Part shown: positions 12,001 through 14,583 of the stretch, one piece after another
Position numbering within the stretch: the stretch's first letter is position 1
Layout: each line of letters opens with the position of its first letter
Assembly (NCBI GenBank): GCA_001938485.1
Contig: MQRK01246750.1
Location: 1 to 64,000, forward strand
Length of the DNA stretch: 64,000 nt
Source: Girardia tigrina
Taxonomy: Eukaryota
Direction: 5' to 3'
Program-made: the position numbers

Positions 12001-14583
12001 AAAACTCTATTTCCGTTAAGCAATTCAGAGTAAGAAATTTTATGGGGCAATGGGATTTAAGGTAAAAAGTTTCTTTTGTAGCATTTTCGTCAATTGGAAA
12101 TCTCAAAAGGATTTTATATTTATTAATAATAGTTCTGAATCAGATGTCCTTCTTTGTATGGTATTCTCAAATGTTTTTCTAAGACGTTTTCCTTGTAACA
12201 CTTGTCGTGTTGATCCCTAACGTTAAGCATATTAATAGGGAAGAAGTCAAGATAAGACATAAAGACAGGAAATTTGTCAGCCTAAAGCTCTAAAAGAGAG
12301 ATGTTGAAGAAGTTTCTTGTAGTTAGTGGATTTAAGGTTATACAAACTCTCCTTAAATAATCTTTGCTTTCATTAGTGATAGAAAAATGTTTAATATTGT
12401 GTATTCATTCAAACATTTTTTCACGAATTGTGTATTCATATCTCTTAGACTATACAATTTTTCTTTAAAAATTGTGGATACCCGACCAAATGAACAGTAA
12501 TGTGGGAATCAGTACTACCAATTTAGTCAGGATTTTTTAATATCTTCTACAACGTAATTATAAAAATAAATTAATTTTATAGAATAATCATATTAAACCG
12601 TACAAAATTGAATTCCAAAACAGATGTTTCCTTTGAATATCCTTAAGTATCCTTTGTAAAGTAAAATTATATATTATTTTTTTATATATTTATAATTTTC
12701 ATTTCTAAAAAAAATAATTAATTCAAAATAATGTTTTTCTTCATAAATTACATTTTTTTGTTTATATTTGAATATTATTCCTTTTAAAACATTTTTTTAA
12801 AAAAAAAGTTGATAAATAGAGATAGCTAATGAAAATATTTGATATTTGATATTTACAAAAATCTTCTGTAAACAATAATGTTTTTCGGACATAATCTTCT
12901 TATGATAATTTTTCGATGATAAAAAAATTACAAAGAATAATTTCAGTGAAATAAGTTTTCAGGTTCATTTTTAGATCAAATTTCGCTTTTCAAACAAAAA
13001 ACAAACATTACCTGACATTTAATTCTAAATTTTATTTCTTCTTCCAATTGATTTTTAAGTAATTCGAGTTGAGTTTTGGACATTTTTGTACTAAAATGAT
13101 GCGGCTGGAAGAACTGAGGACTGAAAAGACTTTCCAGGGTTGGCAATTTGGAATTGGCAGATTTCAGGATTTCTTCAGAAATTTTCGAATTCATTCCGGA
13201 TAACTAAAAATTGTTCCAAGAATTAATTTCTTTCAATTAAAAAAAAGTGTTCAATTAATTAGTCAAATAAAACGTTTTAACAAAACTAAAATAGATGAAG
13301 AAAACAATCATAATAATGTCTAGGCTATTCTTTTGATTAATGTTACACGACATTTACTTAATAATAGAAGAGTTAGGCTTCTTTTATTTTGTTTAAATAA
13401 TGAGATAATTAAAACAAGTCTCTAATTTCTATGACAAGGAATTGCTTTTAAAACTAAGTGTTTAGTATAATTAGAAAAAGTTGTATTATATGCTTCGAAT
13501 GTTTATAAATTTCTTTCTGGAAAATTGCATAAATTATATAATTTTTAGATATTTTACAAAACATTTTCAATTTTTAAAGAAATCAAAAGATTTTTAATGA
13601 TTTTTTAATAAAAAATATATAACCAGTTGTGTCACCGGGTATTATTAGAAAACCCTCTGAAAATATTTTAATACCTTTCAAAATGTCTTTACACAAAATC
13701 AGAAAACTTTTTAATGATATTTGTCTCTAATCTTTTAAATTCTGTTAGGCCAATATTGCTCTTTTTATTTATTTATGCTTTTAAATCCAGTTAAATTGTT
13801 GTAGCGATGCTGCCGCGCTTCGTCTTTTGAGTTACTGATTTAGCTCGGAGACAAATTATTTCGTCCTAACCTTAAGCGAGCAAAGGTGCTCAATAGTCCG
13901 CCGCAACTATGCACTGTTTAGCTCCAAATCATCAATTGTGGTCCTTAAGAGGACCGTATTTCTTTCGCAATTATTAGAAGCACATGAGGAACCACCGATG
14001 AAATAATCTGATTGAAACAATTTCCCAAGATTCGAATTCAGTATGTAATCGAAAGTGGTACTATTCAATTCAACCATGACGCTGATCAACACACACTTTC
14101 CATGAATTCCAGAAGTAAAGTAAACATAAATTCTCTGTAATTGCAAATCACTGTCGCCTTCGTAAACACCAGTCGTCGGTTTGATTCCGTGTTCATTGGA
14201 GATTATTTTCCAAAACTTCTTTCCAATACTGTTTCCACAACTTTGAAATATTCTCATTAATTCATACCATTGATCATGAATATCTTCACAAATTTTAGTA
14301 GGTGCTGAAATCTCGTCAGTTTCTTTGATATGCAATCTCTGATCGGGAATCCTTACATGATTATCTTCAAATGTCCTTATAAAATAATCTACATTAATTA
14401 TATAGTCAAAGGACAAAGTTATCTGTTCTTTTAAATTAGACATTCAATTTCAGTTAATGAATATTTTTCTTTAATGAAAAGAAATTGATATTGCCAGCAA
14501 TAATTTTATTCGATATCAAAATCATATAATAATAATTCGATTAAGCAAACGAATTCCAGTCAACAATTTTTAAACTTATTACT

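What the first reader, a model, noticed from the sequence alone, without database searches (positions are those of the whole stretch)
13907..14443. Intronic, open but heavily diverged beta-tubulin-domain ORF with a novel N-terminal extension
Seen: 178 stop-free codons in AT-rich DNA, on the host gene's strand. About 90 residues align to beta-tubulin at only about 50% identity by my manual count. The MREI start is replaced by about 60 unrelated residues, DLE becomes ELN, and GQSGAGNNW becomes GSSCASNNC. Known: animal beta-tubulins are normally extremely conserved, and MREI mediates mRNA autoregulation. Inference: neutral decay to 50% should have produced stops or frameshifts, so the source was probably a fast-evolving tubulin-domain fusion family, of which this is a truncated copy or a captured fragment. 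A phase-0 CAG at 14423-14425, preceded by ctaat, could also splice to exon F and give a PTB-tubulin chimera; this is speculative.
Basis: partly seen in the sequence, partly recalled or inferred. Interest (0 to 1): 0.72.

Follow-up and report, generated by a model that had tools for sequence, protein, structure and literature searches.

The report
Phosphatase–tubulin–histone-hairpin mosaic ORF
The open reading frame is a patchwork made from the start of a protein-phosphatase gene, a slice of beta-tubulin and the tail hairpin of a histone message, one copy of a small repeated family sitting in an intron, and most likely a fossil of copying accidents rather than a working tubulin.

Summary
The sequence facts hold. 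A 178-codon ORF lies at 13907-14443 on the minus strand, in a 5.4-kb intron of a PTB/PID gene on the same strand. Residues 69-158 match beta-tubulin 12-100 at 49%.

The "novel extension" is not novel. Residues 1-68 are the N-terminus of a PP1-like Ser/Thr phosphatase, from its own start codon to just past the GDxHG motif (here EDIHDQ).

Directly after the tubulin piece comes a nematode-type histone mRNA 3' hairpin. It matches the C. elegans element at 18 of 22 bases; the next best site in the window scores 14.

So the ORF is a same-sense mosaic of at least three unrelated transcripts. A GC-rich tail of unknown origin follows.

It is not unique. Three database proteins carry the same phosphatase-tubulin joint (65-90% identity), and two more carry the same N-terminus continuing as phosphatase.

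Both enzyme cores are incomplete and their motifs are mutated. No fold is predicted (pLDDT 30). The hairpin lies inside the ORF.

Best reading: a chimeric copy made by reverse-transcriptase template switching, then duplicated, and now a passenger. The open frame is unlikely under neutral decay (P about 0.02 for the tubulin part), so a translated young gene family is not excluded.

The parts
13907..14443 (-). Chimeric ORF of 178 codons plus a TAG stop
14240..14443 (-). Piece 1 (residues 1-68): N-terminus of a PP1-like Ser/Thr phosphatase, with its own ATG. The GDxHG motif now reads EDIHDQ. A 19-residue helix present in the full-length relative P0063 is missing.
   Evidence: Residues 43-68 match PP1 53-78 with E 3e-4. 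Identity to P0063 is 46 of 77 aligned residues, with a 19-residue gap. P0063 is a full Metallophos protein at 136 bits. P0004 and P0005 share this N-terminus and continue as phosphatase.
14234..14239 (-). Joint 1: codons C69-G70 (tgt gga). Both parents have Cys-Gly here, so the crossover lies within at most 6 nt of microhomology (inferred).
   Evidence: The alignment shows chimeras reading FQSCG|NSIG and the phosphatase type reading FQNCG|KSST. Tubulin reads QCG|NQIG.
13961..14239 (-). Piece 2 (residues 69-161): beta-tubulin residues about 12-103, without an intron, 49% identical to canonical beta-tubulins
   Evidence: The tail after residue 158 has no tubulin similarity: 1772 of 2000 shuffles reach its score.
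13937..13958 (-). Piece 3: nematode-type histone mRNA 3' hairpin element. The stem is GGTCCT/AGGACC, the loop CTTA and the 3' flank ACA. It lies inside the ORF at codons 162-169.
   Evidence: Rfam RF00032 matches at 13917-13960 with 22.1 bits, below the cut-off of 34. E is 8e-4 for 401 bases, 0.008 for 4 kb and 0.13 for the whole window. A degenerate pattern gives 1 hit against 0.01 expected. The element matches the C. elegans element printed in PMC1924863 at 18 of 22 bases; the next best of 127,958 positions scores 14 of 22. It folds as predicted.
13790..13936 (-). GC-rich tail (43-46% GC) of unknown origin. It belongs to the same GC island and holds the ORF's last 9 codons and its stop.
   Evidence: GC profile. 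No Rfam, tRNA or recognisable protein match. No second copy in the window.
14626..15955 (+). Tc1-like DNA transposon inserted about 180 bp upstream of the ORF's ATG. It is not part of the mosaic but separates it from older upstream sequence.
   Evidence: 54-nt terminal inverted repeats, 85% complementary. Transposase domains DDE_3 and HTH_Tnp_Tc3_2.
13204..18668 (-). Host-gene intron that contains the ORF
   Evidence: Exon borders read. Both exons are phase 0 at this intron.

Best explanation
The ORF is one copy of a small repeated family that descends from a single mosaic. Three pieces are joined head to tail in the same sense:
1. The 5' end of a PP1-like phosphatase message, from its start codon to codon 68.
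2. Codons about 12-103 of a beta-tubulin message.
3. The 3'-terminal hairpin of a replication-dependent histone message.
About 145 nt of unknown GC-rich sequence follow.

The layout is what a single reverse-transcription run would leave: the native 3' end of one RNA at the 3' side, an internal slice in the middle, and the native 5' end of another RNA at the 5' side. In that run the enzyme starts near the end of a histone mRNA and jumps templates twice at short microhomologies. This is the template-switching route known for LINE-made chimeric retrocopies.

The product was then duplicated, and its 5' part exchanged sequence with phosphatase-type relatives. The copy in this window sits passively in an intron of a PTB/PID gene and is not one of that gene's exons. 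It cannot act as a tubulin or as a phosphatase.

Shown: the identity of the three pieces, their order and strand, the existence of sister copies with the same joint, and the loss of catalytic motifs. Inferred: the RNA-mediated route, the microhomology at the joints, and the lack of present function.
For: Piece identities:
- PP1 part.
- Tubulin part.
- Hairpin: 18/22 against the C. elegans element with the next best at 14/22.
- The tubulin similarity ends at nt 13961, and the Rfam hairpin match begins at 13960 on the same strand.

Family: 3 of the 5 proteins found (P0001 at 90%, P0002 at 83% aligned, P0003 at 65%) carry the same joint. The other 2 (P0004, P0005) carry the same N-terminus but continue as phosphatase.

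Sequence exchange: the first 19 residues of P0003 (chimeric) and P0005 (phosphatase type) are identical. Residue 68 separates chimeras (S) from the phosphatase type (N). The pattern is mosaic.

Degeneration:
- GDIHGQ reads EDIHDQ in the window, P0001 and P0004. It reads GDIHKP in P0002 and EETHDK in P0003. It is intact only in P0005 and P0063.
- The tubulin loops are changed.
- C-termini differ among copies.

Other points:
- AlphaFold2 on the 4 chimeric sequences gives mean pLDDT 29.9, with no residue at 50 or above.
- The hairpin lies inside the ORF, with the stop 29 nt after it. A hairpin-ended RNA would therefore have no stop codon.
- The unit is a GC island of about 650 bp in DNA of 15-24% GC.
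- Template switching that gives bipartite and tripartite chimeras is documented (abstract of PMC2104539).
Against: - The frame is more open than neutral decay predicts. P(no stop) is 0.017 for the tubulin part at 50% identity and 0.07-0.10 for the phosphatase part at 60%. Indels were ignored.
- The two indels seen among the chimeric copies are both in frame: 27 residues in P0002 and 10 in P0003.
- No short broken fragments of the family turned up. The 'shorter' search gave 2 candidates, and none scored.
- P0002 differs from the window at both partners of one stem pair. V to A forces T to C, and T to A forces A to G, so the pair is kept. This looks like constraint on the hairpin (inferred from codons).
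- No poly(A) tail, no convincing target-site duplication and no LINE-derived 3' piece was found.
- Whether the parent genes have introns in the captured stretches could not be checked.
- A trace of the nematode SL1 leader upstream of the ATG is not significant. It matches 12/22, a level reached by 0.58% of positions, and 24 offsets were tried.
Confidence: 0.6

Rival explanations
1. A young, translated chimeric gene family. After the mosaic arose it came under selection as a small (about 20 kDa) non-enzymatic protein, transcribed from the phosphatase gene's own 5' region. The window copy is a live or recently live member.
For: - The native start codon is kept in the window, P0001, P0002 and P0004.
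- The open frame is unlikely under neutrality.
- Both indels among the chimeras are in frame.
- 83 positions are invariant across the 4 chimeric sequences.
- No broken fragments were found.
- A compensated stem pair is inferred in P0002.
- An AATAAA lies about 135 nt after the stop.
Against: - Only ORFs enter protein databases, so open copies are the ones that can be seen.
- The surviving motifs differ from copy to copy.
- The stop position and C-termini are not conserved.
- No confident fold is predicted, although the alignment has only 4 sequences.
- The hairpin sits inside the ORF.
- A Tc1-like element lies 180 bp upstream of the ATG.
- No expression data could be consulted.
Confidence: 0.25
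2. The same mosaic, but assembled at the DNA level. The pieces would be gene fragments patched together by end joining at a break, or picked up by a fragment-capturing transposon (Helitron-like or Pack-type), which then spread the unit.
For: - The family is multi-copy.
- The unit carries an extra GC-rich piece of unknown origin.
- No poly(A) tail or target-site duplication was seen.
- The window is crowded with DNA transposons.
Against: - No terminal inverted repeats or other transposon ends bracket the unit. Among the 21 inverted pairs in 11000-17500, only the Tc1 pair is convincing.
- The outer pieces correspond to the native 5' end (start codon) and native 3' end (hairpin plus ACA) of messages. 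That fits copying of RNA ends better than random DNA breakage.
- The 92 tubulin codons carry no intron.
Confidence: 0.12
3. An alternative exon of the host PTB/PID gene. Splicing from 18669 to the CAG at 14425-14423 would give a PTB-phosphatase-tubulin fusion.
For: Same strand; both sides are in phase 0.
Against: - The acceptor context aaaagaacag has no pyrimidine tract, unlike the three real acceptors read nearby.
- The same ORF occurs in other copies starting at its own ATG.
- The ORF ends in a stop with no donor site, so it would truncate the host protein.
Confidence: 0.02

Closest known systems
Chimeric retrocopies (bipartite and tripartite) made by template switching of LINE reverse transcriptase (PMC2104539; search listing, abstract and outline seen)
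   Same: Copies of different cellular transcripts are fused directly, in the same sense. Three-part products arise from two jumps. Several such chimeras are transcribed.
   Different: The described cases end in a LINE or SINE copy or a poly(A)-bearing piece, and the fungal tripartite case has 14-bp direct repeats. Here the 3' recognisable piece is a histone hairpin, and no poly(A) or direct repeats were found. Two of the pieces are read through as one long ORF, and the unit is multi-copy.
Processed beta-tubulin pseudogenes (recalled, not from a call)
   Same: An intron-less tubulin sequence away from the parent gene, with mutated functional motifs.
   Different: Only residues about 12-103 are present. 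They are fused in frame to a phosphatase N-terminus, with no stop or frameshift despite 50% divergence.
Nematode PP1-like phosphatase expansions. P0063 is the nearest full-length relative. Its nearest Atlas clusters are Metallophos families whose commonest phylum is Nematoda.
   Same: The N-terminal 68 residues, including the start and the first metal-binding motif, match at 46/77.
   Different: The rest of the catalytic domain is absent, GDxHG is mutated, and a 19-residue helix is deleted.
Replication-dependent histone mRNA 3' hairpin (Rfam RF00032; the C. elegans element printed in PMC1924863, passages seen)
   Same: A 6-bp stem, a 4-nt loop starting with C, and an ACA flank. The match is 18/22. 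The CTTA loop is the variant that paper reports for four C. elegans H2B genes.
   Different: No histone coding sequence precedes it. It lies inside a non-histone ORF and scores below the Rfam cut-off.
Gene-fragment capture by Helitrons or Pack-type transposons (recalled)
   Same: Mosaics of fragments from unrelated genes, amplified to several copies, sometimes giving chimeric ORFs.
   Different: No transposon termini were found around the unit.

Membership tests
Beta-tubulin (Tubulin/FtsZ GTPase domain, PF00091) | Reaches the Pfam gathering score | tested here: not met
   28 bits against a cut-off of 33. Residues 69-158 cover only profile positions 10-79 of 190.
Beta-tubulin (Tubulin/FtsZ GTPase domain, PF00091) | Complete GTPase domain, including the glycine-rich signature loop near residue 140 (position recalled) | tested here: not met
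   Similarity stops at tubulin residue about 103. The tail is not tubulin-like: 1772/2000 shuffles reach its score. No other tubulin piece lies in the window.
Beta-tubulin (Tubulin/FtsZ GTPase domain, PF00091) | Conserved nucleotide-binding loops in the part that is present (GQCGNQ, DLEPGT, GAGNNW) | tested here: not met
   They read QSCGNS, ELNSTT and CASNNC.
Beta-tubulin (Tubulin/FtsZ GTPase domain, PF00091) | MREI N-terminus | tested here: not met
   Residues 1-10 of tubulin are replaced by 68 phosphatase-derived residues.
PPP-family Ser/Thr phosphatase (Metallophos, PF00149) | Pfam domain match | tested here: not met
   Only Tubulin was reported for the ORF at E up to 1. The relatives P0063 (136 bits) and P0005 (38 bits) do match.
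PPP-family Ser/Thr phosphatase (Metallophos, PF00149) | GDxHG, GDxVDRG and GNHE metal-binding motifs | tested here: not met
   GDxHG reads EDIHDQ. The other two motifs lie beyond the joint and are absent.
PPP-family Ser/Thr phosphatase (Metallophos, PF00149) | N-terminal homology to a full-length member | tested here: met
   E 2e-29 and 46/77 identity to the full-length relative P0063. Residues 43-68 match PP1 53-78 with E 3e-4.
Histone mRNA 3' stem-loop (RF00032) | Reaches the Rfam gathering score | tested here: not met
   22.1 bits against 34; whole-window E 0.13.
Histone mRNA 3' stem-loop (RF00032) | 6-bp stem, 4-nt loop, AC-rich 3' flank, and a match to a documented element | tested here: met
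   GGTCCT-CTTA-AGGACC-ACA. It matches the C. elegans element at 18/22, and the next best site in the window scores 14/22.
Histone mRNA 3' stem-loop (RF00032) | Lies in the 3' UTR just after a histone coding sequence | tested here: not met
   It follows tubulin-derived codons and is read through by the ORF. No histone domain was found.
LINE-mediated chimeric retrocopy | Same-sense, directly abutting copies of different transcripts | tested here: met
   Phosphatase, tubulin and hairpin pieces abut at 14239/14240 and 13960/13961 on one strand.
LINE-mediated chimeric retrocopy | Pieces lack the introns of their parent genes | not testable with these tools
   The parent genes of this genome are not available.
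LINE-mediated chimeric retrocopy | Poly(A) tail and flanking target-site duplication | tested here: inconclusive
   There is no A-run, only AATAAATAAAAAG about 135 nt after the stop. The only flanking direct repeat is a 19-nt, 84% AT-rich pair at 13477 and 16712, which is likely chance.
Exon of the host PTB/PID gene | Acceptor with a pyrimidine tract and a downstream donor | tested here: not met
   The context is aaaagaacag, and the ORF ends in TAG with no donor. Junction reads are not available.

The most novel reading that the evidence does not exclude
A lineage-restricted gene family, probably in nematodes, born when a reverse transcriptase stitched together three abundant messages: a PP1-like phosphatase, beta-tubulin and a histone. 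The family would since have been kept open by selection, encoding a small protein made of the first strands and helices of two unrelated nucleotide/metal-binding folds. The retained histone-type hairpin would influence when the RNA is made or stable.
Probability: 0.2. Interest if true: 0.7.

Novelty: new member of a known kind. Interest (0 to 1): 0.45.

Why it matters
The result turns an apparent "fast-evolving tubulin with an unknown domain" into a datable, dissectable mosaic of three housekeeping or germline messages.

If the RNA route is confirmed, the locus records double template switching in an invertebrate genome. It would also be a rare case in which a histone mRNA end served as a template.

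If the frame proves to be under selection, it is a clean example of a new coding gene born from fragments of old ones.

For annotation, the practical point is that this ORF and its relatives should not be called beta-tubulin or phosphatase genes.

Tried and rejected
- **Longer or fused forms.** None appeared among the best 150 of 1,750 hits. The 'longer' search on residues 1-68 gave 1 candidate, and it did not score.
- **Shorter broken copies.** 2 candidates, none scored.
- **Other copies, or the missing halves of either parent, in the window.** None. Only the ORF itself matched P0001-P0005.
- **Bacterial/archaeal genome contigs.** Of 96 pattern matches, 2 were confirmed. Both are ordinary tubulin pieces without the extension.
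- **ESM Atlas with the ORF.** No usable hit.
- **AlphaFold2.** No confident model, so no fold search was run.
- **Tubulin similarity in the tails of the window ORF, P0002 and P0003.** Not above shuffles: 1772, 968 and 722 of 2000.
- **SL1 leader remnant before the ATG.** Not significant.
- **Origin of the GC-rich tail at 13790-13936.** No Rfam, tRNA or visible protein match, and no repeat in the window.
- **Transposon ends around the unit.** None found.
- **Literature.** Three searches (15, 15 and 7 papers listed) showed no description of a phosphatase-tubulin chimera. This is a limited search of open-access text.
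Full report
**Observation**

The minus strand holds an ORF from an ATG at 14443 to a TAG at 13909-13907. It has 178 sense codons, and an in-frame TGA immediately precedes the ATG. The ORF has 33.7% GC against 24.3% in the flanks. With this composition a stop is expected every 11-12 codons, so 178 open codons have a chance of about 1e-7 per start.

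Residues 68-161 align to beta-tubulin 11-103 with E 2.5e-23 against PDB sequences. BLASTP gives 44/90 identities (49%) for residues 69-158. Pfam Tubulin stays below its cut-off, at 28 against 33 bits. The sequence facts of the finding are therefore confirmed.

**Setting**

The window is AT-rich (14-36% GC per 2 kb) and full of mobile elements:
- several mariner-type transposases;
- a Tc1-like element;
- a gypsy-type retroelement;
- a LINE-like endonuclease fragment.

On the minus strand there is a PID/PTB exon (Pfam PID 28.6 bits), split by a 45-nt intron at 35892-35936. Further exons lie at about 33.2-33.6 kb, 18669-18796 and 13012-13203, with AG/GT borders.

The ORF lies in the intron 13204-18668, on the host's strand. 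I scanned the host exons one at a time and did not join them. From memory, the PID exon resembles NOS1AP/CAPON-type adaptors; this was not tested.

A Tc1-like transposon with 54-nt inverted ends sits about 180 bp upstream of the ORF's ATG.

**The extension is a phosphatase N-terminus**

A search of proteins of similar length returned five relatives.
- P0001 (90% identity), P0002 (83% over aligned columns) and P0003 (65%) have the same N-terminal extension joined to the same tubulin piece.
- P0004 and P0005 share the extension but continue as ...CGKSSTDRYLFLGD/E.., which is phosphatase sequence.

P0004 matches PP1 and PP2A catalytic subunits (E 3.6e-19, residues 37-122 against PP1 45-130). P0005 matches Pfam Metallophos (38 bits).

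The exhaustive search of 1.84 billion representatives added P0063, a 371-residue protein with a complete Metallophos domain (136 bits). It has the same N-terminus. The window ORF aligns to it at 46 of 77 positions, with a 19-residue gap (E 2e-29).

On its own, the window's first 70 residues hit PP1 (residues 43-68 against PP1 53-78, E 3e-4).

So residues 1-68 are the start of a PP1-like phosphatase. This stretch runs through the first metal-binding motif, which reads EDIHDQ here instead of GDIHGQ.

The joint falls on a Cys-Gly that both parents possess: phosphatase FQNCG|K and tubulin QCG|N. The crossover therefore lies in at most six bases of shared sequence (inferred).

**A histone hairpin follows the tubulin piece**

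Tubulin similarity ends at residue 161, which is nt 13961. The ORF's tail has no tubulin similarity: 1772 of 2000 shuffles reach its score.

From 13960 on the same strand, Rfam reports a histone 3' stem-loop (RF00032). It scores 22.1 bits, below the cut-off of 34. The E-value is 8e-4 for 401 bases, 0.008 for 4 kb and 0.13 for the whole window.

The sequence TACGGTCCTCTTAAGGACCACA (13958-13937) forms a perfect 6-bp stem with a 4-nt loop. A degenerate pattern for such a hairpin occurs once in the window, where 0.01 is expected.

Compared with the C. elegans histone hairpin element printed in PMC1924863 (passages read), it matches 18 of 22 bases. The next best of 127,958 positions in the window reaches 14. 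The four differences are:
- one flank base;
- both partners of one stem pair (C-G to T-A, so pairing is kept);
- the last loop base, CTTT to CTTA. The paper reports that variant for four C. elegans H2B genes.

I therefore accept the hairpin as a third piece.

After it come about 145 nt of 43-46% GC whose origin I could not find. The whole unit stands out as a GC island of about 650 bp.

**Organism**

These are leads only:
- the hairpin has a C-first loop, like the C. elegans element (only the title of Michel et al. 2000 was seen, in that paper's reference list);
- the nearest Atlas clusters of P0063 have Nematoda as the commonest phylum;
- the host gene has a 45-nt intron.

Together these point to a nematode. 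This was not established, and nothing in the argument depends on it.

**What the family looks like**

All four chimeric sequences share the joint and 83 invariant positions. They differ in other ways:
- The first phosphatase motif varies: EDIHDQ, EDIHDQ, GDIHKP and EETHDK.
- P0002 has an in-frame deletion of 27 residues and P0003 one of 10 residues.
- Everything after the hairpin region differs.

The phosphatase-type relatives are also degenerate:
- Both lack the 19-residue helix present in P0063.
- P0004 reads EDIHDQ, LEDYIDYG and SRRNHE where P0063 has GDLHGQ, GDYVDRG and RGNHE.

The N-terminal parts group by something other than the joint:
- The first 19 residues of P0003 and P0005 are identical.
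- The window, P0001 and P0004 share another version.
- Residue 68 is S in all chimeras and N in both phosphatase-type sequences.

That mosaic pattern suggests sequence exchange between the two kinds of copy.

No longer protein containing the chimera and no short fragments of it were found. The window holds only this one copy.

**Function**

The ORF has about 92 of roughly 445 tubulin residues and 68 of more than 300 phosphatase residues. Every motif that could be checked is altered, so neither enzymatic activity is possible.

AlphaFold2 on the alignment of the four chimeric sequences gives mean pLDDT 29.9, with no residue at 50 or above. This is weak evidence because the alignment is shallow.

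The hairpin sits in codons 162-169 and the stop comes 29 nt later. An RNA cut after the hairpin would therefore lack a stop codon. The two signals do not form a coherent gene design.

Against a pure relic, I simulated neutral, AT-biased substitution without indels.
- The tubulin part stayed stop-free in 1.7% of runs by the time identity fell to 50%.
- The phosphatase part stayed stop-free in 7-10% of runs at 60% identity.

Most of the divergence from canonical tubulin is shared by all copies, so it arose in one lineage.

Its weight is reduced for three reasons:
- Protein databases only show open copies.
- The true parents are unknown.

P0002 differs from the window by V to A and T to A at exactly the codon positions that hold the two partners of one stem pair. 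This forces T-A to become C-G. That is a compensated change and hints at constraint on the hairpin. It is inferred from amino acids, not read from DNA.

**Mechanism**

The 5' piece keeps the native start of one message. The 3' recognisable piece is the native end of another, namely the hairpin plus ACA; C. elegans histone mRNAs end 3-6 nt after the hairpin (PMC1924863). The middle piece is an internal slice. All three are in the same sense and abut directly.

That is the footprint expected from one reverse-transcription run with two template jumps. This process is documented for LINE enzymes, which give bipartite and tripartite chimeras (abstract of PMC2104539).

I could not find a poly(A) tail, target-site duplications or a LINE-derived end. 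I also could not check parent-gene introns. A DNA-level patchwork or transposon capture therefore remains a rival.

An SL1 leader remnant before the ATG was looked for and is not significant.

**What stayed unchecked**

So there is no dN/dS, no flanks and no copy number per genome.
- No supplementary files were consulted.
- Three literature searches listed no report of such a chimera. They cover open-access text only.

**Verdict**

The interpretation needs correcting. This is not a diverged tubulin with a new domain. It is a phosphatase-tubulin-histone-hairpin mosaic belonging to a small family. It was most likely made through RNA and is now a passenger in an intron (confidence 0.6). A translated young gene family is the main alternative (0.25).

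Noticed in passing
window 14626-15955 (+): A Tc1-like transposon with 54-nt inverted ends, inserted in a (TA)n tract. Its transposase frame is open over 332 codons (14847-15845), of which 20 are masked N.
   Followed up: partly
window 51531-55947 (-): A gypsy-type retroelement with RT, RNase H and integrase-like ORFs and a gag-like zinc-knuckle ORF. It is broken into several frames.
   Followed up: partly
window 22228-23022 (-), 34323-35348 (-), 45554-46529 (+), 59074-60056 (-): Four mariner-type transposase remnants. Two were confirmed as Pfam Transposase_1. Several are interrupted by masked runs or frame changes.
   Followed up: partly
window 50558-50680: A near-perfect palindrome that hits several unrelated microRNA models on both strands, all far below their cut-offs (best is MIR5380, 72.5 bits against 150). 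It looks like a MITE-type hairpin rather than a microRNA gene.
   Followed up: no
window 27868-28683 (-): A 271-codon ORF with a basic, Cys/His-rich product and a weak C2H2 zinc-finger hit (18.6 bits). Overlapping long ORFs lie on both strands. Its origin is unknown.
   Followed up: no
window 41387-42577 (+): Two ORFs resembling the endonuclease part of a LINE. The Exo_endo_phos hit is weak (16 bits). This shows that a non-LTR element family may exist in this genome.
   Followed up: no
window 35892-35936 (-): A 45-nt intron splits the PID exon of the host gene. Such very short introns sit beside introns of more than 5 kb in the same gene.
   Followed up: partly
L002 4700-6900 (contig CAVPIW010000006.1): A canonical, intron-containing eukaryotic beta-tubulin gene lies on a 1.1-Mb, 54-62% GC contig filed as a Nitrospiraceae MAG. 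The contig is probably eukaryotic and mis-binned.
   Followed up: partly
P0004 and P0005 (database proteins): The phosphatase-type relatives of the ORF carry mutated metal-binding motifs and lack a conserved N-terminal helix. The donor of piece 1 may therefore already have been a defective phosphatase copy.
   Followed up: partly
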